37,772 nucleotides of DNA. It comes from a virus. Lineage: Duplodnaviria > Heunggongvirae > Uroviricota > Caudoviricetes. Position numbers and translations under genes: made by a program. Under the pieces are notes generated by a model, which searched no databases, had not been told where the DNA came from, and was given only the letters and a program-made list of their open reading frames with translations. Below are positions 5,681 through 34,683 of the stretch, piece after piece. The stretch's first letter is position 1. Every line of letters begins with the position of its first letter. The stretch spans positions 1 through 37,772 of the IMG/VR virus record IMGVR_UViG_2563366960_000009; one strand, 5' to 3'.

Positions 5681-5842
5681 TGACACCCGGCCAGTGCAAA
5701 CCGCTGGCCGGAGCAGTATCAGGATTTTTTAGTATGCCGTTCTCACAAAAAAACCGCTTGCCATGCCGCAATCAGTCAGGTTACATTTTCGCTGCACCTC
5801 ATAAAACGGGTGCCGGGTTTCGCAGCCTGCTGACTACAAGAG

Positions 5843-6722: not shown

Positions 6723-9545
6723 ATGACGACAGAGTACATCAGGGACTGGCAACAACCGCGCCACACAGTAGGACGTGAAGGAACGGAGATCCCCGCACCT
6801 GAATCCGCACTTTCCTCCTGGCTGGATGCCTACCGGGCAGAGAACGAACGCCGCCAGGAAATGGCTGATGCGGCGTTCTCCGCCACACCGCTGGGCAACC
6901 TGATTAATAAAAGCCTGGACGCACAGGAAAAACAGGACAAAACCATCACACTGGCCAGAGAAGCCAGAAAACAGGCACGCGGCGCGGTGGATGAAGCCAT
7001 GGCCTCGCTGCGCCTGCTGCCATCCTATCTGCGCGATCCGCTTATTCGCCACCTCTCCTTCCTGCGCAAAAAACAGGAAGCCGATCGCCGGAAAGGCAAA
7101 AAGAGCTGGCAGGCGGAACGCTATGCACGCGGAACCCTGCGCAAAATATTCGAACGTCTGGATCGCACTGACGGACGCTGGCTGACACCGGGTTATCGCT
7201 CCCTTGCCGGACGCGAACGCCTGGACGATTTGCTTTACCTGCCGCAGCTCAACAAACACCAGATACAGACGCTGGCCACCATGACGGCGGCGATGTTCAG
7301 CAGCACCTTCGAAAAACTCTGCGATGGCTTTGGCGCGACCGATGGCGAACTGACCATGGATGTAACGCTGAAGGCGTATCAGATGCTGGCCCGCATGGCG
7401 TTACACCTGCACATCATGCCTCCACATTATGACGCACTGACAACAGATAAAGACCGGAGGAACGAACCGGACACGGAGCTGCTGCCGGGCGCAATCCTTC
7501 GCCTGACCTGTGCTGAATGGTGGAAACGCAAACTGTGGCTGTTACGTTGCGAGTGGAGAGAAGAACAACTCCGCGCCGCCTGTCTGGTTTCCAGAAAAAC
7601 ATCGCCCTATCTGAGCCAGGACGCATTAAGCGAGTTTCGCGCACAGCGCGAGAAAACACGCGATTTCCTGAAAAGTTTCATGCTGGAAAACGAAGACGGG
7701 TTCACGATTGATCTCGAGACAGTGTATTACGCGGGAGTAAGTAACCCGGTTCACCGTAAGGCAGAAATGATGGCCACCATGAAGGGGCTGGAACTTCTGG
7801 CCGAAGCCCGTGGCGACAGAGCGGTGTTTCTGACTGTCACCTGCCCGTCAAAATACCATGCCACAACAGAGAACGGTCATCCGAATCCCAAATGGAACGG
7901 GGCCACCATGCGCGACTCCAGCGATTACCTGGTTAACACGTTTTTTGCAGCGGTCCGCAAAAAACTGAACCGCGACGGCCTTCGTTGGTATGGCATCCGC
8001 ACGGTGGAGCCTCACCATGACGGCACTGTGCACTGGCATATGATGGTCTTTGCTCATCCGGAAGAAATCGACAGCATCGTGGCCATCACCCGCGATATTG
8101 CCATTCAGGAAGACCGCCACGAGCTGGGCGATGACATAACTCCGCGTTTTAAAGCGGAGTACGTCGACGGCTCAAAAGGCACGCCAACCAGCTACATCGC
8201 CACCTACATCGGAAAAAACCTGAGCAGCCGCGCCGTGGATGGTATCGACCCAAAAACGGGCAAGCCACGCGTTGACCATGAAACCGGAAAATCAATGGCC
8301 GAGAGCGTGGAGCGCGCTATCGGCTGGGCACGCCTTCACCGGGTCCGCCAGTTCCAGTTCTTTGGCATCCCCTCCCGTCAGGTGTGGCGTGAACTGCGCC
8401 GCCTTGCCAGCCAGATGGCACGCAACCCGGAAGGCCCGCAACGGCTGAAGGATGACGCAATGGATGCGGTTCTTGCTGCCGCTGATGCCGGATGTTTTGC
8501 CACCTACATAGAGAAACAGGGCGGCGTTCTTGTTCCACGCAAAGACTACCTGATTCGCACCGCCTACGACCTCGCAGATGAGCTGAACGATTACGGCGAA
8601 CAGAGCGTACAGATTTACGGGATCTGGTCGCCACTCATCGGGGAATCCTCCCGTGTGTGCACGCATCCGGATAACTGGAAGCTGGTAAGACGTAAACCGG
8701 AAACGGAAGACAGCGCCCGCGAAAATGGTTTTGACCTTCAGGGCGGCCCTGCCGCCCCTTGGACTCGTGGCAATAACTGTCCCCGTGTACAGGAAACGGA
8801 CAACAACGGGACAGAACAGCCGGAAGAACGGCCAGCACCGTGGCCGCAGCTTCCTGACAGCGTTGATGTGGATGAATGGATGCGCTCACTGAAACGGCAC
8901 GAACGCCGGGCGCTGATGCGTTCGCTGCGTGACAAACAGGCAAAAAACAGCAGTGATGAAATGCAGAACTGGACACAGAGCCGCAAACAGCCACAGCCTT
9001 TGCCTGATAACCACGAGTTACTCGCTAAAGAATGGCGGGAGTCTGCTGAATCTCTCGGCCTGCATATCGGTGAACAGCAGATGCAGCACCTGTTACGGGG
9101 CGGCAGCCTGTACGTTGACGGCAGCATCATTGCACCGCAGGGATATGAAATTGTACGTAAACCGGATACCCGCCCGGACAGCCGAATCACGCAGCTCTGG
9201 CAACGCCTGAGCCGTAACCACGGCGTAAGCAGCACGGAGATCCGCCATAACCCGGTCGCCAGCTATCTGGAACAACTAGGGGCATCAGACCCTGAAGCCG
9301 CCGCACGCCTGGCATCCACACTTCAGCAAGACCAGAACACCATGAAAACACCCGTTACCGTACTTTCTGACATGCTGCGCGCCATCCGCGACGCAGAGCA
9401 CGAACAGAGAATCAGTGAAACAACTGAACGCGCCCGCCGCAAAGCAGACCTGCTGCGGGGTGGCCTGACCAGTGGAAACAAAAAACAGACAAAAACGGGA
9501 TTCACAAATCCCGTAAATGAGCAAAAAACGCGCCGCGATATATGA
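6723..9545 (+). CDS. Replication initiation endonuclease (P2 gpA-like rolling-circle initiator), with a long C-terminal extension
   Basis: 940 aa. HUH-like motif TVHWHMMVF and paired tyrosines in SYIATYIGKN match the P2 A family. Longer than P2 A as I recall it (about 760 aa). Confidence 0.85.
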   Translation: MTTEYIRDWQQPRHTVGREGTEIPAPESALSSWLDAYRAENERRQEMADAAFSATPLGNLINKSLDAQEKQDKTITLAREARKQARGAVDEAMASLRLLPSYLRDPLIRHLSFLRKKQEADRRKGKKSWQAERYARGTLRKIFERLDRTDGRWLTPGYRSLAGRERLDDLLYLPQLNKHQIQTLATMTAAMFSSTFEKLCDGFGATDGELTMDVTLKAYQMLARMALHLHIMPPHYDALTTDKDRRNEPDTELLPGAILRLTCAEWWKRKLWLLRCEWREEQLRAACLVSRKTSPYLSQDALSEFRAQREKTRDFLKSFMLENEDGFTIDLETVYYAGVSNPVHRKAEMMATMKGLELLAEARGDRAVFLTVTCPSKYHATTENGHPNPKWNGATMRDSSDYLVNTFFAAVRKKLNRDGLRWYGIRTVEPHHDGTVHWHMMVFAHPEEIDSIVAITRDIAIQEDRHELGDDITPRFKAEYVDGSKGTPTSYIATYIGKNLSSRAVDGIDPKTGKPRVDHETGKSMAESVERAIGWARLHRVRQFQFFGIPSRQVWRELRRLASQMARNPEGPQRLKDDAMDAVLAAADAGCFATYIEKQGGVLVPRKDYLIRTAYDLADELNDYGEQSVQIYGIWSPLIGESSRVCTHPDNWKLVRRKPETEDSARENGFDLQGGPAAPWTRGNNCPRVQETDNNGTEQPEERPAPWPQLPDSVDVDEWMRSLKRHERRALMRSLRDKQAKNSSDEMQNWTQSRKQPQPLPDNHELLAKEWRESAESLGLHIGEQQMQHLLRGGSLYVDGSIIAPQGYEIVRKPDTRPDSRITQLWQRLSRNHGVSSTEIRHNPVASYLEQLGASDPEAAARLASTLQQDQNTMKTPVTVLSDMLRAIRDAEHEQRISETTERARRKADLLRGGLTSGNKKQTKTGFTNPVNEQKTRRDI

Positions 9546-9621: not shown

Positions 9622-10581
9622 ATGAAAATTTGTATCGACGACGGCTCCACCAACATCAAGCTGGCATGGACTGAGAACGGCGAACACCGCAACGCCATCA
9701 GCCCGAACAGCTTCAAGTCGGAATGGTCTGCGCCGTTCGGTGGCTCGCAGCCTGCGAACTACATGCTTGATGGCGTGCGCTATGGTTTTGATCCGGTCAG
9801 CGATCGCTTTGTCCAGACGACCGACACGCAATACCAGTACAGCGATGTGAATGTAATCGCCATTCACCACGCGCTGGTCAAATCAGGCATCACGCCACAG
9901 GAGGTGGATGTGGTTGTCACCCTGCCACTGAGCGAGTATTTCGACACAAACGCCCAGCCGGATATGACCAACATCAACCGCAAAAAAGCGAACGTTATGC
10001 GCCCGGTGGAGTATCAGAACAGTGAGGCATTCACTATCCGTAACGTGCGGGTTATGCCTGAATCCATTCCGGCTGGCTTTAAAGCACTGGCTGACATGAG
10101 TCCGTTTGAATCCCTGCTGATTGTGGATTTGGGCGGAACCACGCTGGATGTGGCAAAGGTTCAGGGGCAACTGGCAGGTATCAGCCAGGTGTTTTGCGAT
10201 CCACACGTAGGCGTTTCTCTGATGGCCGATGCCGTGCTGTCGGTGATGGCCACCAACGGTATGCGCACCAGTCACCACATCGCCAATACCATTATCGAAC
10301 ATCGCCACGATGAAGCCTGGCTGCGCCAGCACATCCACAATGACGCGCATTACGCCAGCCTGATGGCAGTTATTCGTGAAAAGGAGGAAACACTGAAACA
10401 ACGCGTGATCCGCGCGCTGGCGGGTTTTTCGGGTTACGGGCGGGTGATGGTTGTAGGTGGAGGAGCGGAGATTGTGGCACCCGCTATCCGCGAAGCCTGC
10501 GGAGTTAATGCGACTTTCATCGCGGACGGGGTGCCACAATTTGCTCTGGTTAATGGGCTGTACGCAATGGACAAGGAGTAA
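9622..10581 (+). CDS. parM: ParM/StbA-like actin-family partition ATPase
   Basis: 319 aa. N-terminus MKICIDDGSTNIKLAW closely resembles plasmid R1 ParM (..FIDDGSTNIKLQW, from memory); later LLIVDLGGTTLDV and VMVVGGGAEIV match actin-fold phosphate-binding motifs. Confidence 0.8.
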   Translation: MKICIDDGSTNIKLAWTENGEHRNAISPNSFKSEWSAPFGGSQPANYMLDGVRYGFDPVSDRFVQTTDTQYQYSDVNVIAIHHALVKSGITPQEVDVVVTLPLSEYFDTNAQPDMTNINRKKANVMRPVEYQNSEAFTIRNVRVMPESIPAGFKALADMSPFESLLIVDLGGTTLDVAKVQGQLAGISQVFCDPHVGVSLMADAVLSVMATNGMRTSHHIANTIIEHRHDEAWLRQHIHNDAHYASLMAVIREKEETLKQRVIRALAGFSGYGRVMVVGGGAEIVAPAIREACGVNATFIADGVPQFALVNGLYAMDKE

Positions 10582-10585
10582 ATCA

Positions 10586-10897
10586 ATGACGACACCAACC
10601 AGACGGATAAGTTTCTATCTGAAGCCCGCCGCCGTCAAGAACGAAGGTGAAGCATGCGCCTGGCTGGACAGCCTTACACCAGAAGCGCGCAAAAGCGGCC
10701 AACGCGTGGCTTTTCTGGCCGGGCTGGCACTTCTGAAAATGAATCCGGCAGAGGCTTACCGACTGGCTGCATGGGCTGATGATGAAGCGTTATCAGTGAC
10801 ACAAACCAGGACAGAACGCCCCGCGTCACAGCCAGTATCAACCGCACAGATAACCAGTCAGATGGCCGGAAATATCCGGGCGTTATTTCCCGAATAA
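10586..10897 (+). CDS. parR: ParR-like centromere-binding adaptor
   Basis: 103 aa directly after parM. RRISFYLKP...LDSLTPEARKSGQRVAFLAGLALL and the C-terminal NIRALFPE align by eye with R1 ParR (RRTIAFKLNP...LDSIPQGERSRLNRAALTAGLALY...LRSLFPKE, from memory). Confidence 0.7.
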   Translation: MTTPTRRISFYLKPAAVKNEGEACAWLDSLTPEARKSGQRVAFLAGLALLKMNPAEAYRLAAWADDEALSVTQTRTERPASQPVSTAQITSQMAGNIRALFPE

Positions 10898-10902
10898 CAC
10901 AA

Positions 10903-10926
10903 CATCAGGGCGCATCCGCCCTGATG
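10903..10926. promoter_or_regulatory. Perfect 10-bp inverted repeat (catcagggcg-catc-cgccctgatg) between parR and the ClpX-finger gene
   Basis: Read directly; no T-tract follows, so it is more likely an operator or processing site than an intrinsic terminator. Confidence 0.35.
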
Positions 10927-10960
10927 ACTTTAACCCGGGAACATAAACAAGGGGGACACA

Positions 10961-11296
10961 ATGCAACGCATTGACAGAGAAAAAGCGCAGCGACTGATTG
11001 AGCGGATGGAAGCGCTGGCGAAAGAAGAAAATGTCAACATCCAAAAAATAGCTGAATGTGGCCAGATAGTTCTTCGTCGTGAAAAAGACCTCAAACAACT
11101 GATGTCTGGCGAAACCAGCAAAACATGGACTTCAGGTGAGGAGACGATTTATTGCAGCTTCTGCAATAAATCCCAGTACGAAGTCACAAAGGTGATTGCC
11201 GGACCGTCTGTTTACATCTGCAATGAGTGCGTTGATTTGTGCAATGAAGTTATCAGGAGAGAAGTGACAGACCATGAAGAAAAAACGCATGAATGA
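10961..11296 (+). CDS. Small protein carrying a ClpX-type N-terminal C4 zinc-binding domain and no AAA+ module
   Basis: 111 aa. Residues about 64-100, [35 protein letters not shown], closely match the ClpX zinc-binding domain consensus (CxxC...CxxC). N-terminal half is a predicted helical region. Confidence 0.7.
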
Positions 11297-11462
11297 CGAA
11301 TTTGACGGCTTTTAATTTTATCGGGGCGCACTGTCGCCCTGCATGGAGAAAAACAATAAAAAAGATGAATAACTGCTCATGTCAGACGCGCTGCGGGCAA
11401 GTCTGGCACCCTGCCCTGTCTCCGCAAAGGCTGTTGTCTTAACACGACAGAGTATGCCAGCA

Positions 11463-11870
11463 TTAAATATAATCTTCTTCGTAGTCGCTGATTAATTCAT
11501 TGCCATAATCAGACAGCAATTTCAAAGCAAAGGTAACTTCCTCAAGGGTAGCTATCCCCATTGCTGAAAACACCGTTAATTTAACCAGCAGCAGGGAGTT
11601 TGAAAGTTCGGAAGAGTTCATCATTAAAAATATTGATGCAGCCTGAAAAGCTGTGCGTTTATTCCCATCATGAAAGGCATGAGCCTTGGCTATACCAATC
11701 AAATACATAGCAGCCAGAGCATGAATATCATCAACCCCTTCATAGTAGTGTAGTGTCCTGACGCGATTTAAAGCACCTTCAAGTAGCCCGTCATTGGCAT
11801 TTCCGCTCTGGGGTAAAGTTTCAGCATGGATACGTTCTACTTGTTCTTTTGACAAAAACACTATGTCCAT
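11463..11870 (-). CDS. doc: Doc-family (Fic fold) toxin
   Basis: 135 aa with the Doc motif HAFHDGNKRTA (HxFx[DN]GNKR); start overlaps the stop of the upstream antitoxin (ATGA). Confidence 0.8.
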   Translation of the reverse strand: MDIVFLSKEQVERIHAETLPQSGNANDGLLEGALNRVRTLHYYEGVDDIHALAAMYLIGIAKAHAFHDGNKRTAFQAASIFLMMNSSELSNSLLLVKLTVFSAMGIATLEEVTFALKLLSDYGNELISDYEEDYI

Positions 11871-12226
11871 CAGTTATCCTCAAGCTTTTTAATGATATCC
11901 GCATGTTTTTCTCTTGTACGCTTCATTGCATCTTCAAAAGACAATCCTTTTTTTCTCTGTGCGACAAGAGCTGGATGACGTTTTTCCAGATCTCTCACTG
12001 CATTTATTAAGAGTGGTTGCTTCATTTTGTTTATTTGATCCCGCAGTTTTTTGGTTTTGCCAAGGACAGCCCGTATTTCAGGACTAAGATCAGAACCAGC
12101 AAGAACAACATCCTTCCCTCCCTGCGCCGTGATAACGACACTGCCACCGGAAGAAAGGTAATCCAGAATTTCACTCAGGTTCTCACGAAATTCATCATCA
12201 GTTACAGTTTTCATATTCATTTCCAT
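11870..12226 (-). CDS. phd: Phd/YefM-like antitoxin
   Basis: 118 aa immediately upstream of and translationally coupled to doc; N-terminal region is consistent with a Phd/YefM fold. Confidence 0.65.
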   Translation of the reverse strand: MEMNMKTVTDDEFRENLSEILDYLSSGGSVVITAQGGKDVVLAGSDLSPEIRAVLGKTKKLRDQINKMKQPLLINAVRDLEKRHPALVAQRKKGLSFEDAMKRTREKHADIIKKLEDN

Positions 12227-12288
12227 TATGCACGCCCATAACGTAAGTATAACGGCTTGTTGGGCAGTAATAACACCGCCATATTTTC

Positions 12289-12326
12289 ATTTTATACACC
12301 GCACAATAGTGCACAAATTTGCACAA
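12289..12326 (-). promoter_or_regulatory. Putative phd-doc promoter/operator: three GCACAA (TTGTGC on the coding strand) repeats at exact 10-bp spacing, next to a TATAAA-like -10
   Basis: Plus strand gcacaatagtgcacaaatttgcacaa at 12301..12326; includes GTGCAC palindromes; about 70 bp upstream of the phd start. Confidence 0.45.
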
Positions 12327-12422
12327 TTTTTTTGAACAACTTTTTACCCTTCCGGCCCGCGTGGCGACTGGATCCGTCAAGGATCCGTGCGTGCACAAAA
12401 AAACGCGCTTTTTCTGCGCGCA

Positions 12423-12471
12423 GGTGACGGGGGAACAGCCCGCGTTTCAGGGGGTAAATAGCATCCCCTGA
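12423..12471. other. Putative cos / terminase recognition region
   Basis: ggtgacgggggaacagcc resembles the G-rich P2/186 cohesive-end sequence as I recall it, followed by an 8-bp inverted repeat ttcagggg...cccctgaa. It sits between the hotspot and portal gene Q, where cos lies in P2 prophages. Confidence 0.3.
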
Positions 12472-12692
12472 ACGATGTCGCAGCGACACAACAGAATGGC
12501 TGTATTTCTCACGCTGAGCGTGAAAAAGACGTGAGGGCTTTTGATTTGATGGGGTGAAAGGTAAGGCCGTCAAAATCGCACTGAGACGGCGAGAACATGC
12601 AGTCAACGCGGTGGGATTGCGTAAGAGTCTGACTGTCGATGATGGCAATAAGCAGGAAAGCGTCGTGAAATTATCTGATTGATACAGGAGCT

Positions 12693-12716
12693 GGAGAGTC
12701 GGGGCATAAATTTTTT
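12693..12716 (-). terminator. Stem-loop downstream of Q (ggggcat-aaatttttt-atgcccc); possible terminator of the Q-P operon
   Basis: 7-bp perfect stem read directly; lies about 35 bp after the Q stop on the minus strand. Confidence 0.3.
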
Positions 12717-12750
12717 ATGCCCCGGCGAAGCAGCAGACAAGCGAAGCGCG

Positions 12751-13797
12751 TCAGGATGTGGGCTGGGTGTCTAACAGTGCGTAAGGGTTAAAGCGGATCA
12801 CCTCTTCGCCAAGCCAGTCATTGATGTGCTTTATGGCCTCCATGACAGGCATCAGCTCGTTAATTGCGTAAACCCGCGCGGCCTTCTCCACATCGCCAAA
12901 CGCACTTTTTTCGCCCGGCATCGCCCCCATCAGTTGCGGCGGAACGCGGTGCGCAGCCAGCACATCATCACGGGATGCCGCCTTAACATTCATGAACTCA
13001 TCCTTTGCGGTGATCTGATGGAACGGCAAAATTTGCACCCCCTCTTTGCCCCCGTTGGGCGCATGGATGAGCACGTTTTTAAACGCACCACCACCACGCG
13101 CACCCTGTAACGTTTCTTTCAGGGAGTCCATGCTTTCGCGGTTTACCTGCGCTGCACCGATGTAGATGATGCACCCGGCGTGGGATCCATTGTCGTAATA
13201 CAGTTTTCTGAACATGTCCGCCGAATGAGACAGGCTGGCCGAGAGTAATGCGCCAAGATATTCCGGCATGCCGTAAATTTCCTGGTTAATGTCCGGATTC
13301 ATCAGGTGGCACACTTTGCCAGGGCGAAACTGAAACGCGTCCTTGCCATCCTGCACATACCACCATGATTCAAGATCGCTTCCGCGTCGCATGTATTTCG
13401 CCAGTGCGTGCCGTAATTTAAGTGGTTCGCCGAGCATATTGCTCCGAAGCTCAAGGAATGCGTTACCGAACACAAACCAGTCCAGCGCCAGCGCCGAGAA
13501 ATCCTGCCGGGAAAGCAGCGGGTGCGGGATGTAGCAACCGAGCAATACATTGCGCTTAAAGTAAAGCGCAGACTGATGCCAGGACGTTTGCCGGGCAGCT
13601 CTTGCCAGACCGTACCAGTCCACCGGGGTTTCATACCACCGCCCGTTATCAGCACAGTACATATTGTCCAGCAGGTCATGCCCGGTCAGGCGATAAGGAC
13701 CATCAAATGTGAATGCACTGAGCGATGATTCTTTCCTGAGCGCATCAGCGAGATCAATGCGTGAACTCATGCGCACTTTTTTATTTTTTCTGCTCAT
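12751..13797 (-). CDS. Portal protein (P2 gpQ-like)
   Basis: 348 aa (P2 Q is about 344 aa); leftward with P as in P2; ATGA overlap with P. Confidence 0.85.
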   Translation of the reverse strand: MSRKNKKVRMSSRIDLADALRKESSLSAFTFDGPYRLTGHDLLDNMYCADNGRWYETPVDWYGLARAARQTSWHQSALYFKRNVLLGCYIPHPLLSRQDFSALALDWFVFGNAFLELRSNMLGEPLKLRHALAKYMRRGSDLESWWYVQDGKDAFQFRPGKVCHLMNPDINQEIYGMPEYLGALLSASLSHSADMFRKLYYDNGSHAGCIIYIGAAQVNRESMDSLKETLQGARGGGAFKNVLIHAPNGGKEGVQILPFHQITAKDEFMNVKAASRDDVLAAHRVPPQLMGAMPGEKSAFGDVEKAARVYAINELMPVMEAIKHINDWLGEEVIRFNPYALLDTQPTS

Positions 13798-34422: not shown

Positions 34423-34683
34423 ATGTTCCGTTGTCCGCTTTGTGGCGCATCTGCCCGTATCCGCACCAGTCGTCCGGAAAATGATTCAAACACCGTGCGG
34501 CAAAAGTATTACCAGTGTAACAATCTGGAATGCGGCGTATGCTTCTCAACACTGGAAGCTTTCCATAAATTCACATCAAAACACGCCTCCGGCGTTCACT
34601 CTTCAGAAGGTATCCCGTGGCATGATCTGCCAGCTTCACACAGGGGAAACAATCAGATGAGTTTGCCTTTATCTCAGAATTAA
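34423..34683 (+). CDS. ogr: Ogr/Delta-type zinc-finger late-gene transcriptional activator
   Basis: MFRCPLCGASARIRTSR...YYQCNNLECGVCFSTLE resembles P2 Ogr (MFHCPLC...HQCQNVNCSATF, recalled); CxxC...CxxC zinc finger. Confidence 0.85.
   Translation: MFRCPLCGASARIRTSRPENDSNTVRQKYYQCNNLECGVCFSTLEAFHKFTSKHASGVHSSEGIPWHDLPASHRGNNQMSLPLSQN

What the first reader, a model, noticed from the sequence alone, without database searches (positions are those of the whole stretch)
10899..11296. Stand-alone ClpX zinc-finger domain protein preceded by a perfect palindrome
The C-terminal 40 residues are a near-consensus ClpX N-terminal zinc-binding domain, the part that docks adaptors and substrates, but there is no AAA+ ATPase. 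A free domain of this kind could titrate ClpX adaptors or substrates, acting as a protease modulator, anti-repressor helper or defence/anti-defence factor. A 10-bp perfect inverted repeat lies just upstream.
Basis: partly seen in the sequence, partly recalled or inferred. Interest (0 to 1): 0.5.

Follow-up and report, generated by a model that had tools for sequence, protein, structure and literature searches.

The report
Phage-borne copy of ClpX's docking domain
A small accessory gene of a P2-like E. coli prophage encodes a free-standing copy of the zinc-binding docking domain of the host protease motor ClpX, joined to a helical domain found nowhere else; it most likely acts as a decoy for ClpX's adaptors or substrates, but this has never been tested.

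Summary
Window 10961-11296 (+) encodes a 111-aa protein. Residues 62-100 are a ClpX zinc-binding domain (ZBD): Pfam zf-C4_ClpX E=3e-17, about 75% identical to E. coli ClpX, model superposes at 0.7 A. There is no AAA+ module. A perfect 10-bp inverted repeat lies at 10903-10926.

The window is a P88-like (P2-family) prophage. The gene equals P88 gp19, mis-named "carboxylate--amine ligase". It sits in the known gpA-gpQ variable hotspot, after parM/parR.

The palindrome does not belong to this gene. It marks the 3' end of parR, persists where other cargo follows, and is absent upstream of homologues elsewhere.

The protein belongs to an uncharacterised two-domain family: a family-specific N-terminal helical hairpin, a flexible linker, then the ZBD. 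It occurs in P2-like prophages of E. coli and Salmonella and in D6/P1-like phage-plasmids. 112 of 5426 complete E. coli genomes carry this allele. Both domains are under purifying selection, and the ZBD is the more constrained.

Published in-vitro work shows that free ZBD added in trans blocks RssB-dependent sigma-S degradation by ClpXP. The best reading is a ClpX N-domain mimic or decoy (confidence about 0.4). This is a new variant of a known kind, of moderate interest.

The parts
10961..11296 (+). Gene for the 111-aa stand-alone ClpX-ZBD family protein (equals P88 gp19; PHROG 6797)
   Evidence: ORF. Pfam zf-C4_ClpX E=3e-17. PHROG 6797, E=2e-57, unknown function. 95% identical to P88 gp19. 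dN/dS 0.07-0.5 in both domains.
10950..10956 (+). Shine-Dalgarno AGGGGGA, 4 nt before the ATG
   Evidence: Read directly from the sequence. Conserved in the 39 parR-linked loci.
10961..11104 (+). N-terminal domain (residues 1-48): predicted helical hairpin, specific to this family
   Evidence: AlphaFold helices 6-22 and 27-48, pLDDT 83-90. Residues 1-59 searched alone against 1.8 billion representative proteins gave 11 hits. Ten are family members or fragments and one (P0124) is a spurious eukaryotic repeat protein. No Pfam hit.
11105..11143 (+). Flexible linker (residues 49-61)
   Evidence: pLDDT below 50 for residues 52-59. Length and sequence vary between subgroups.
11144..11260 (+). ClpX-type zinc-binding domain (residues 62-100). 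Zinc ligands are C65, C68, C87 and C90. F67 and V97 correspond to ClpX F16 and I46.
   Evidence: F16 and I46 lie in the hydrophobic pocket whose region overlaps the lambda-O site and is also bound by TF, SspB and RssB, per PMC7804408.
10903..10926 (.). Perfect 10-bp stem, 4-nt loop hairpin, starting 5 nt after the parR stop codon. It marks the 3' boundary of the parMR module and is not specific to the ZBD gene.
   Evidence: Present in 38 of the 39 parR-linked loci whose full upstream flank could be read; the exception, L013, has one stem mismatch. Retained with a 7-bp stem and a different loop in P88_4B11, which lacks the ZBD gene. Homology in some E. coli genomes ends exactly at 10926, and a DUF4760 gene on the opposite strand follows. 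No U-tract on the + strand; flagged as terminator-like only on the - strand.
9622..10581 (+). parM (actin-like plasmid segregation ATPase); upstream context
   Evidence: Pfam StbA_N and ParM, E=7e-82.
10586..10897 (+). parR / StbB-type partition protein (103 aa from the ATG at 10586); upstream context
   Evidence: Pfam Plasmid_stab_B E=4e-24. Start taken from the P88 annotation.
11290..11316 (+). Eight-codon mini-[11 protein letters not shown] overlapping the ZBD stop codon
   Evidence: Conserved in L007, L015 and L017 with only synonymous differences, and in D6-like L062.
11323..11340 (+). Downstream hairpin GGGGCG-CACTGT-CGCCCT, which travels with the 3' flank of the gene
   Evidence: The same module is found in L007 and in D6-like L062.
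11358..11438 (+). Remnant (aa 2-28) of a 174-aa gene that follows the ZBD gene intact in other prophages; truncated here
   Evidence: tblastn 70% identity over residues 2-28 only. The gene is intact in L007, L008, L015, L017, L018, L021, L032 and L052.
11463..12226 (-). Doc (Fic-family toxin, 11463-11870) and Phd-like antitoxin (11870-12226): a separate cargo cassette of the hotspot that replaced the downstream gene
   Evidence: Pfam Fic E=4e-11 and PhdYeFM E=8e-7; PHROG Doc-like and Phd-like. Present only in the window-type loci (window, L013, L014, L016) and, independently, in L068.

Best explanation
The gene encodes a phage-made mimic of the N-terminal docking domain of the host unfoldase ClpX.

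Shown. It is a real gene under purifying selection. It has two domains: a family-specific helical hairpin, a disordered linker, and a ClpX-type zinc-binding domain that keeps all four zinc ligands and the F16/I46 hydrophobic pocket. It has no ATPase and no ClpP-docking part. It is carried as a self-contained single-gene module, on the early/replication strand, by unrelated temperate phages of enterobacteria.

Inferred. Like the isolated ClpX ZBD, the protein dimerises through its ZBD. The N-terminal hairpins may add stability or valency. The dimer then competes with the ZBD dimers on ClpX hexamers for things that must dock there, such as the tails of adaptors (SspB, RssB, UmuD) and N-domain-dependent substrates (lambda-O type, MuA type). 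The predicted result is selective inhibition of N-domain-dependent ClpXP proteolysis or remodelling, while direct pore-recognised substrates such as ssrA tags are spared.

The benefit to the phage is not established. It could be protection of phage or host proteins from ClpXP during early lytic growth or induction.

The upstream palindrome is not part of this device. It is the terminal hairpin of the parMR module.
For: Domain identity and fold.

No ATPase.

Precedent for the mechanism. Purified ZBD added in trans inhibits RssB-mediated sigma-S turnover by ClpXP and cross-links to RssB as a dimer (PMC7226468). The ZBD is required for lambda-O degradation, and F16 and I46 lie in the hydrophobic pocket. 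That region overlaps the lambda-O site, and TF, SspB and RssB bind it too (PMC7804408). F16 is invariant and I46 is I or V in every family member examined.

Stronger constraint on the ZBD than on the rest. Across subgroups the ZBD stays 70-88% identical to E. coli ClpX, while the N-domain falls to 20-25% identity. ZBD dN is 0.14-0.29 against 0.54-0.81 for the N-domain, and dN/dS is below 0.5 wherever dS is not saturated. At the DNA level the ZBD is only about 72% identical to E. coli clpX, so this reflects long-term selection on the protein and not a recent capture.

Host-directed rather than phage-specific. The same two-domain protein occurs in P88/P2-like prophages, in Salmonella P2-like prophages and in D6/P1-like phage-plasmids. 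Its flanking genes differ between these contexts.

Early-operon setting. It is on the same strand as gpA-parMR, has a strong SD and no sigma-70-like promoter of its own. In D6-like plasmids it overlaps its neighbours within long arrays of small early accessory genes (Ea22-like, DUF4752, ASCH).
Against: There is no direct binding or activity data for this family. No paper was found.

A pure decoy needs to be in stoichiometric excess over ClpX ZBDs, and the expression level and timing are unknown.

A simple decoy does not explain why a second, conserved N-terminal domain is always present.

The D6-like subgroup has non-conservative changes in the ZBD (P31S32 to DN/ED, D41L42 to KD/DA), and several P88-like alleles carry Y34C. 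The ClpX-like surface is therefore not strictly preserved.

The pattern in which each ZBD is closest to ClpX is also what independent divergence from a ClpX-like ancestor would give. By itself it does not prove mimicry.

The gene lies in a hotspot known mainly for anti-phage systems (PMC9122126).
Confidence: 0.4

Rival explanations
1. Hijacker or poison subunit. The phage ZBD forms mixed dimers with the ZBD of newly made ClpX subunits, or docks on the ClpX ring through its N-terminal hairpin. This plants a foreign domain on the hexamer. That would either recruit a specific target to ClpXP for destruction (adaptor-like) or block the N-domain movements needed for substrate hand-over.
For: The ZBD is a dimerisation domain: rapid dimer cross-linking of free ZBD (PMC7226468) and dimers in ClpX (PMC7804408). 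The core of the domain is nearly identical to host ClpX. The always-present, selected N-terminal domain would have a clear role as the cargo-binding or ring-binding part. There is precedent for phage adaptor-like proteins on Clp machines: SPO1 Gp53 on ClpCP (PMC6873191, listed).
Against: The N-domain is about 40-50% conserved between P2-like and D6-like phages, whose repressors and replication proteins are unrelated. This argues against a phage-specific cargo. ZBD dimers are described as constitutive, so exchange with assembled ClpX may be slow (established knowledge, not tested here). No partner gene is conserved next to it.
Confidence: 0.2
2. Lysogenic-conversion or exclusion gene. The protein is expressed from the prophage, for example by read-through from the autoregulated parMR promoter. 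It uses the same ZBD-mimic chemistry to benefit the lysogen. It could block phages that need the ClpX N-domain (Mu-type transposable phages), or raise RpoS by interfering with RssB delivery.
For: It lies in the gpA-gpQ hotspot, where old, tin, retrons and other exclusion systems reside (PMC9122126). The arrangement 'StbA + Plasmid_stab_B + zf-C4_ClpX' is listed in that paper's tables. 15-32% of unknown P2 proteins are predicted to be antiviral (PMC13586616). In L068 the gene is divergent from its neighbour, with a weak promoter-like site upstream and a hairpin downstream that I read as terminator-like but the terminator scan did not flag; L053/L054 likewise have a hairpin after the gene that the scan flagged only on the opposite strand. 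This resembles a moron. The ClpX N-domain is needed for MuA recognition (PMC5415555).
Against: No PADLOC model matches. In the window and in D6-like plasmids it has no promoter of its own and is embedded in early-operon gene arrays rather than being a stand-alone moron. It was never among the systems tested. In this window the recognisable defence-type cargo is the adjacent Phd/Doc pair.
Confidence: 0.15
3. Function unrelated to ClpX. The zinc ribbon has been re-used as a generic small zinc-finger module, for example for nucleic-acid binding or transcriptional control as in Ogr/Delta.
For: Treble-clef and zinc-ribbon folds are versatile. Weak structural echoes of ZZ, LIM and RING fingers appear below the ZBD hits. 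Many other phage proteins carry a ZBD with unrelated extensions (L080-L092; Cr30 and phage G).
Against: Identity to ClpX (70-88%) is far above what fold retention alone needs, and it includes the adaptor/substrate pocket residues. The protein does not match Ogr_Delta, and the prophage has its own Ogr-like gene. Nothing in the sequence indicates a DNA-binding function.
Confidence: 0.1
4. The palindrome is an operator or regulatory site for the ZBD gene, as the title of the finding implies.
For: It lies 35 nt upstream of the ATG and is perfectly symmetric.
Against: It is absent upstream of every homologue not preceded by parR: L007, L053/54, the D6-like loci and L003/L068. It is present after parR where the ZBD gene is replaced by an Ea22-like gene or by an opposite-strand DUF4760 gene. 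Homology breakpoints fall exactly at its 3' end. L069 has a different hairpin in the same place after parR.
Confidence: 0.05
5. Decaying fragment of a captured clpX gene with no function.
For: It is short and clpX-derived.
Against: The domain order is rearranged: the ZBD is C-terminal, behind a novel domain. dN/dS is 0.07-0.5 in both domains. The gene is intact in more than 50 loci from three phage backgrounds and in 112 complete E. coli genomes. It has a strong SD.
Confidence: 0.02

Closest known systems
[quoted passage not shown]
   Same: Same domain: C4 zinc site, about 75% identity, 0.6-0.7 A superposition, F16/I46 pocket retained.
   Different: There is no AAA+ ring, IGF loop or ClpP docking. 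The domain sits at the C-terminus, after a novel helical hairpin and linker, instead of at the N-terminus. It is encoded by phages and not by the host clpP-clpX locus.
Isolated recombinant ClpX ZBD used as a competitor in vitro (PMC7226468)
   Same: A free ZBD dimer without the ATPase. It inhibits RssB-dependent sigma-S degradation by ClpXP when added in trans. This is exactly the activity proposed here.
   Different: It is a laboratory construct, whereas this is a natural, selected gene with an extra domain. No activity has been measured for the phage protein.
Phage inhibitors of host ATP-dependent proteases: lambda RexB (ClpP-dependent proteolysis), T4 PinA and T7 Gp4.5 (Lon)
   Same: They are phage-encoded small proteins that dampen a host AAA+ protease. 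The review PMC10286901 presents this as an anti-toxin-antitoxin strategy.
   Different: No sequence relationship: Pfam finds only zf-C4_ClpX. The mechanism proposed here is mimicry of the protease's own recognition domain, which is not known for those proteins.
Mycobacterial ClpC2, a free-standing partial homologue of the ClpC1 N-terminal region
   Same: It is a stand-alone copy of a Clp unfoldase's ligand-binding domain that binds the same ligand as the full enzyme and so protects it (PMC10030653 abstract). It is conceptually the closest natural 'N-domain decoy'.
   Different: It is a host gene and not a phage gene. It belongs to a different Clp family and fold, and its ligand is an antibiotic.
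Anti-adaptors IraD, IraM and IraP of E. coli
   Same: They would have the same physiological outcome, blocking RssB delivery of sigma-S to ClpXP. IraD's site on RssB is proposed to overlap the ZBD docking site (PMC7226468 abstract).
   Different: They are unrelated proteins that bind RssB without resembling ClpX. They are host stress-regulated genes.
Cargo of the P2-family gpA-gpQ hotspot (old, tin, retrons and others; Rousset et al. 2022, PMC9122126)
   Same: Same genomic slot, and the zf-C4_ClpX arrangement is catalogued in that paper's tables.
   Different: It matches no defence model and was not tested. It is oriented and packed like an early-operon accessory gene among Ea22-like genes. 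It also occurs outside this hotspot, in D6-like phage-plasmids.

Membership tests
ClpX-type zinc-binding domain (Pfam PF06689 zf-C4_ClpX) | Profile score above the curated gathering threshold | tested here: met
   62.6 bits against 27, E=3.1e-17, residues 64-99 covering profile positions 2-38 of 39.
ClpX-type zinc-binding domain (Pfam PF06689 zf-C4_ClpX) | Four Cys zinc ligands in CxxC...CxxC spacing (ClpX C14, C17, C36, C39) | tested here: met
   C65, C68, C87 and C90. They are conserved in the intact family members aligned; the column as a whole is about 90% because truncated sequences were included.
ClpX-type zinc-binding domain (Pfam PF06689 zf-C4_ClpX) | Treble-clef ZBD fold | tested here: met
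   The AlphaFold model superposes on 2DS5, 2DS6, 2DS7 and 2DS8 at 0.6-0.7 A with TM(target) 0.87-0.91. This is a prediction only.
ClpX-type zinc-binding domain (Pfam PF06689 zf-C4_ClpX) | Zinc binding, constitutive dimerisation, and binding of SspB, RssB or lambda-O tails | not testable with these tools
   Needs purified protein. Only the pocket residues F16 and I46(V) could be checked, and they are conserved.
ClpX unfoldase (NCBIfam TIGR00382 / NF003745) | AAA+ ATPase module, pore loops and IGF loop; full-length equivalog score | tested here: not met
   49 bits against cut-offs of 371 and 359. Only the first ~50 positions of the 414-418-position ClpX models (positions 3-53) are matched, and the protein ends 11 residues after the ZBD.
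Known anti-phage defence systems (PADLOC-DB v2) | Match to a defence-protein model | tested here: not met
   0 families at E<=0.1.
Known anti-phage defence systems (P2 gpA-gpQ hotspot cargo) | Location between gpA and gpQ in a P2-like prophage | tested here: met
   Window order is gpA 6723-9545, parMR, ZBD gene, Phd/Doc, portal 12751-13797. The same slot is used in L003-L007, L068 and L069. The hotspot is defined in PMC9122126.
Known anti-phage defence systems (P2 gpA-gpQ hotspot cargo) | Measured protection against phage | not testable with these tools
   It was not among the systems cloned by Rousset et al..
Ogr/Delta zinc-finger late activators of P2-like phages | Pfam Ogr_Delta (PF04606) signature; the single late activator of the phage | tested here: not met
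   No Ogr_Delta hit. A separate Ogr-like ORF lies at window 34423-34581, 42% identical to P2 Ogr.
Phage protease inhibitors RexB, PinA, Gp4.5 | Sequence homology to any of them | tested here: not met
   Pfam, PHROG and NCBIfam scans return only ClpX-ZBD-related families. Functional equivalence is not testable here.
Rho-independent terminator (for the palindrome) | GC-rich stem-loop followed by a U-tract on the transcribed strand | tested here: inconclusive
   The stem is 10 bp (7 GC) at -18.4 kcal/mol. The + strand tail is ACTTTAAC, with no U-run. The scan flags it only on the - strand, tail TTGTGTTATT. No Rfam family matches.

The most novel reading that the evidence does not exclude
The family is a phage counter-measure against protease-triggered suicide systems. 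By mimicking the ClpX docking domain, it would stabilise ClpXP-labile antitoxins (Phd-type and others) or other ClpXP-controlled switches during the phage's own induction or lytic growth. That would make it the first natural ClpX-specific anti-protease that works by mimicking the enzyme's recognition domain. It would also explain why Phd/Doc cassettes lie next to the gene in two independent lineages: the window, and L068 with only 35% protein identity.
Probability: 0.12. Interest if true: 0.75.

Novelty: new variant of a known kind. Interest (0 to 1): 0.5.

Why it matters
ClpXP controls many switches that matter to temperate phages and their hosts. These include RpoS levels, SOS mutagenesis proteins, antitoxin turnover, lambda-O and MuA, and (in S. 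aureus) removal of cleaved repressor fragments.

A natural, widespread phage protein that copies only ClpX's docking domain would be a new way for a virus to re-programme a host protease. It would imitate the receptor for adaptors and substrates rather than blocking the active site.

The gene is in about 2% of complete E. coli genomes as this allele. These include well-studied strains such as UTI89, O55:H7 CB9615 and ST131 isolates. About 100 more copies lie on D6/P1-like phage-plasmids. It is currently mis-annotated as 'carboxylate--amine ligase'.

The gene is small and self-contained, and the phages P88, PhiR44_2 and D6 are in culture. The hypothesis can therefore be tested directly. The protein might also serve as a selective tool for switching off N-domain-dependent ClpXP functions.

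Tried and rejected
Things that led nowhere:
- PADLOC defence models gave no hit.
- NCBIfam gave only far-sub-threshold ClpX equivalogs.
- Rfam on 10400-12800 gave nothing.
- The sigma-70 promoter scan found no site upstream of the gene.
- Remote homology of the N-terminal 59 residues against 1.8 billion representatives found only the family itself, plus one spurious eukaryotic repeat protein, P0124.
- Structure searches of PDB and BFVD matched only the ZBD part. The helical hairpin has no informative match.
- The genome-contig scan was swamped by genuine clpX genes of Betaproteobacteria and returned no family member.
- Literature searches for stand-alone zf-C4_ClpX proteins, phage ClpX inhibitors or decoys found no study of this family.
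- The original ZBD papers (Wojtyra 2003; Thibault 2006) are not held in the library.

Ideas considered and rejected:
- A third component of the parMR partition system. Homologues occur without parMR, and about 85-90% of parR-bearing prophages lack the gene.
- A two-gene system with a fixed partner. At least four different downstream neighbours were seen.
- A recent capture from, or gene conversion with, host clpX. DNA identity is only about 72%.
- The 49-aa ORF at 11293-11442 as a real gene. It spans the mini-ORF, the hairpin and the truncated remnant of the 174-aa gene.
Full report
WHAT IS THERE. The window carries an ORF at 10961-11296 on the + strand. It has an ATG start, encodes 111 aa, and has a Shine-Dalgarno AGGGGGA four bases upstream. 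Pfam assigns residues 64-99 to zf-C4_ClpX at 62.6 bits (threshold 27, E=3e-17) and finds nothing else of note. Against PDB sequences the best hits are the E. coli ClpX zinc-binding domain (ZBD) entries 1OVX and 2DS5, at E about 1e-19. 30 of the 40 core residues are identical to E. coli ClpX, including all four zinc ligands. ClpX equivalog models score only 49 bits against cut-offs near 360-370, because nothing beyond the first ~50 positions of ClpX is present. An AlphaFold model (mean pLDDT 79) shows two helices (6-22 and 27-48), a disordered linker (52-59, pLDDT below 50), and then the ZBD with its C-terminal helix. The ZBD part superposes on the crystal structures at 0.6-0.7 A. The 10-bp perfect inverted repeat is at 10903-10912 and 10917-10926. 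As RNA it would fold at -18.4 kcal/mol, better than all 200 shuffles.

WHERE IT SITS. The region is 93-97% identical to Escherichia phage P88 and its relatives (genus Xuanwuvirus, P2 family). The gene is P88 gp19, annotated there as 'carboxylate--amine ligase', and the equivalent hypothetical protein of PhiR44_2. The gene order in the window is: gpA replication endonuclease (6723-9545), parM (9622-10581), parR (10586-10897), hairpin, ZBD gene, a truncated gene remnant, a Phd/Doc toxin-antitoxin pair on the opposite strand (11463-12226), and the portal gene gpQ (12751-13797, - strand). This gpA-gpQ interval is the known variable hotspot of P2-like phages. Rousset et al. describe it, note that about a quarter of these phages carry a partition system there, and list 'StbA + Plasmid_stab_B + zf-C4_ClpX + hypothetical' arrangements in their supplementary tables. 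They did not test them (PMC9122126). The prophage has its own Ogr-like late activator at 34423-34581, so the ZBD protein is not a replacement for a core zinc-finger factor.

THE PALINDROME BELONGS TO parR, NOT TO THIS GENE. 39 viral-contig loci (all but one of which could be read across the full upstream flank) have the gene following parR. All but one of those carry the hairpin, and the exception has a single stem mismatch. The hairpin is also present, with a 7-bp stem and a different loop, in phage P88_4B11, where an Ea22-like gene replaces the ZBD gene. It is again present in E. coli RM8082, where the next gene is a DUF4760 gene on the opposite strand. A search with parR plus the intergenic region across 5426 complete E. 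coli genomes showed discrete homology end-points. One of them falls exactly at the 3' end of the hairpin, query position 341, which is window 10926. Conversely, no such hairpin precedes homologues that are not downstream of parR: L007, L053/54, the Salmonella loci and the D6-like plasmids. A divergent allele after parR in L069 is preceded by a different hairpin. On the + strand there is no U-tract. The consensus scan flags the hairpin as terminator-like only on the - strand, and Rfam has nothing. I read it as the terminal stem-loop and module boundary of the parMR unit. Its possible role as a transcript 3' stabiliser, partial terminator or bidirectional terminator is undetermined.

A TWO-DOMAIN FAMILY IN SEVERAL TEMPERATE PHAGES. 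A search of 5.8 billion proteins found full-length relatives only in Escherichia and Salmonella, at 41-99% identity. Everything more distant was ordinary ClpX or fragments of it. The first 59 residues, searched alone and exhaustively against 1.8 billion representatives, found only this family plus one spurious eukaryotic repeat protein. The N-terminal helical hairpin is thus family-specific and was found only in this family, never with any other domain. In IMG/VR and GenBank phages the family appears in three backgrounds:
- P88-like and other P2-like prophages, always between gpA and gpQ on the gpA strand, with or without parMR.
- Salmonella-type P2-like prophages, with alleles only 35-43% identical.
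- 45-110-kb phage-plasmids of the D6/P1 type, where it sits in a long array of small early accessory genes (Ea22-like, DUF4752, DUF551, ASCH) near ref, icd, hot and humD homologues.

112 of 5426 complete E. coli genomes carry this allele, with 121 of 122 copies chromosomal. About 105 further copies of the D6-type allele are on plasmids. By comparison, 1278 genomes carry the parR type. Many other phages encode unrelated short proteins built around a ZBD (L080-L092, Caulobacter phage Cr30, Bacillus phage G). PHROGs files this family as 6797, 'unknown function'.

A SINGLE-GENE MODULE. The downstream neighbour differs between contexts:
- In P88 it is a 112-aa protein starting at an overlapping ATGA.
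- In other P2-likes it is an 8-codon mini-ORF, a hairpin and a 174-aa protein. The window keeps only residues 2-28 of that protein (11358-11438) before the Phd/Doc cassette.
- In D6-like plasmids it is an Ea22-related 199-259-aa protein.
- In L053/54 and L068/69 it is a hairpin that I read as terminator-like; the consensus scan flagged it only on the opposite strand in L053 and not at all in L068.

Upstream neighbours differ as well. The gene is itself mosaic. Between the window and L007 the N-domain is saturated at synonymous sites (pS 0.79), while the ZBD and its 3' flank are not (pS 0.26). The L011 allele combines a D6-type N-domain with a P88-type ZBD segment. No partner is conserved, so the protein most likely acts on something supplied by the host.

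SELECTION. Nei-Gojobori estimates give dN/dS of 0.07-0.5 for both domains wherever dS is not saturated. The gene is therefore expressed and selected and is not a decaying clpX fragment. The ZBD changes much more slowly than the N-domain: dN 0.14-0.29 against 0.54-0.81 between subgroups. Every subgroup's ZBD stays 70-88% identical to E. coli ClpX, while the N-domains drop to 20-25% identity. At the DNA level the ZBD is only about 72% identical to E. coli clpX and barely detectable by blastn. The resemblance is therefore old and maintained at the protein level. A caveat applies. A pattern in which each ZBD is closest to ClpX is also expected from independent divergence away from a slowly evolving ClpX-like ancestor, so it supports mimicry but does not prove it.

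HOW IT MOST LIKELY WORKS. The ClpX ZBD is the platform on which adaptors and some substrates dock.
- RssB (delivering sigma-S) and SspB bind it.
- Lambda-O degradation requires it.
- F16 and I46 lie in a hydrophobic pocket of the ZBD dimer, in a region that overlaps the lambda-O binding site and that TF, SspB and RssB also bind (PMC7804408).
- MuA and FtsZ recognition also need the N-domain (PMC5415555).
- Purified ZBD added in trans inhibits RssB-mediated sigma-S degradation by ClpXP in a dose-dependent way, and cross-links to RssB as a ZBD dimer (PMC7226468).

The phage protein keeps F16 (invariant) and I46 (I, or V in the window allele). My best explanation, at confidence about 0.4, is a natural N-domain mimic that dimerises and competes with ClpX for adaptor tails and N-domain-dependent degrons. 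This would selectively dampen that branch of ClpXP activity. The steps that are shown are domain identity, predicted fold, selection, modularity and genomic setting. The steps that are inferred are zinc binding, dimerisation, ligand binding, inhibition, and any benefit to the phage.

The setting is the gpA/parMR strand, with a strong SD and no promoter of its own, and with overlapping neighbours in early-gene arrays of D6-like plasmids. This points to co-transcription with early or replication genes, but timing has not been measured. The constant presence of a conserved second domain is the main thing a simple decoy does not explain. The domain could add valency or stability, or it could be the business end of a hijacker that plants itself on ClpX (rival, about 0.2).

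OTHER RIVALS. A lysogenic-conversion or exclusion role using the same chemistry fits the hotspot address (about 0.15), but no defence model matches. Examples would be blocking Mu-type phages or raising RpoS. A ClpX-unrelated zinc-finger role (about 0.1) is hard to square with 70-88% identity to ClpX. The palindrome as operator (about 0.05) and a dead clpX fragment (about 0.02) are essentially refuted by the comparative and selection data.

COMPARISON WITH WHAT IS KNOWN. At the domain level the protein is a member of PF06689. It is not a ClpX, because the AAA+ module was tested for and is absent. Functionally, the nearest things are:
- the recombinant ZBD competitor;
- phage inhibitors of host proteases (lambda RexB for ClpP-dependent proteolysis, T4 PinA and T7 Gp4.5 for Lon), which a review presents as anti-toxin-antitoxin devices (PMC10286901);
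- the host anti-adaptors IraD, IraM and IraP;
- mycobacterial ClpC2, a free partial homologue of ClpC1 that binds the same ligand as ClpC1 (PMC10030653).

None is homologous to the N-domain. I found no report of a virus copying the recognition domain of ClpX.

A lead worth noting: Phd/Doc cassettes lie next to the gene in two independent lineages, the window and L068. From my own knowledge (Lehnherr and Yarmolinsky 1995, cited within), P1 Phd is a ClpXP substrate. Two occurrences in a hotspot rich in toxin-antitoxin modules could be chance.

VERDICT. The gene is already in the databases, mis-named, and is catalogued in hotspot tables, but its function is unknown. I rate it a new variant of a known kind, namely phage modulators of host proteases and free N-domain decoys. 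Interest is moderate (0.5): it is not categorically new, but it is widespread, cleanly testable, and would be the first ClpX docking-domain mimic if confirmed.

Noticed in passing
window 11463-12226 (- strand); L068 4825-5630: A Doc (Fic-family) toxin and Phd-like antitoxin pair lies immediately downstream of the ZBD gene, convergent with it. It replaced most of a 174-aa gene. A second Phd/Doc pair (Doc 58% identical) lies immediately upstream of a ZBD allele that is only 35% identical, in L068. The association arose twice. P1 Phd is a known ClpXP substrate (own knowledge), so this may or may not be chance.
   Followed up: partly
L004 7891-7961 and 8390-8460; L003 7909-7961 and 8391-8460; related element at L068 ~5705-5745: In Salmonella P2-like prophages the ZBD gene is bracketed by a 71-nt direct repeat, 97% identical with 499-bp spacing. 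Each copy has an internal inverted repeat (CTCGCCG/CGGCGAG). This looks like a cassette boundary or recombination element of the hotspot.
   Followed up: partly
window 11290-11316 and 11323-11340: An 8-codon mini-ORF (MNDEFDGF*) overlaps the ZBD stop codon and is followed by a hairpin. In L007, L015 and L017 it differs only by synonymous changes (4 of 4). It also occurs after a D6-like allele in L062 (MNDEFDRFEF*). It may be a leader or coupling element for the 174-aa downstream gene.
   Followed up: partly
window 11146-11172: A 12-bp perfect inverted repeat with a 3-nt loop (GATTTATTGCAG CTT CTGCAATAAATC) lies inside the ZBD gene, across the first CxxC knuckle (IYCSFCNKS). It is the longest perfect short-loop palindrome in the window. 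It is conserved in P88-type alleles and only partly in L007. It may be a by-product of codon choice.
   Followed up: no
window 12700-12724: An 11-bp perfect hairpin (CGGGGCATAAA ... TTTATGCCCCG) lies just beyond the 3' end of the portal gene. All three perfect short-loop hairpins in the 37.8-kb window lie within the 10.9-12.7 kb hotspot.
   Followed up: no
window 9622-10897; E. coli genomes: A ParM/ParR plasmid-partition module sits inside an integrated P2-like prophage. The parR type is present in 1278 of 5426 complete E. coli genomes and is almost always chromosomal (1415 of 1417 places). Its role in an integrated prophage is unclear.
   Followed up: partly
L011 5776-6138 versus L062 5279-5980: The L011 ZBD protein begins with MKSEGLTPAQLAE, which closely matches the N-terminus (MKSEGLTPEQLAE) of the Ea22-like gene that lies upstream in L062. 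This implies a deletion fusion. Its ZBD segment ([13 protein letters not shown]) is identical to the P88-type allele, so alleles recombine between D6-like plasmids and P2-like prophages.
   Followed up: partly
P88 gp19 (NC_026014 10195-10527), D6 (NC_050154 78798-79082), many RefSeq proteins: The family is widely annotated as 'carboxylate--amine ligase' or as 'ATP-dependent Clp protease ATP-binding subunit ClpX'. Both names are wrong for a 107-128-aa protein with only a ZBD.
   Followed up: yes
L019, L020, L039-L041, L045, L049; P0003: There are natural polymorphisms at ZBD positions. Y34C (SVCICNEC) occurs in at least seven loci, and the non-ligand Cys43 is replaced by Tyr or Phe in others. 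These could be neutral or could mark inactivated alleles.
   Followed up: no
window 6723-9545: The gpA-type replication endonuclease is unusually long here (940 aa, against 763-838 aa in the Salmonella and other P2-like loci). Its C-terminal region is rich in charged and Gln residues.
   Followed up: no
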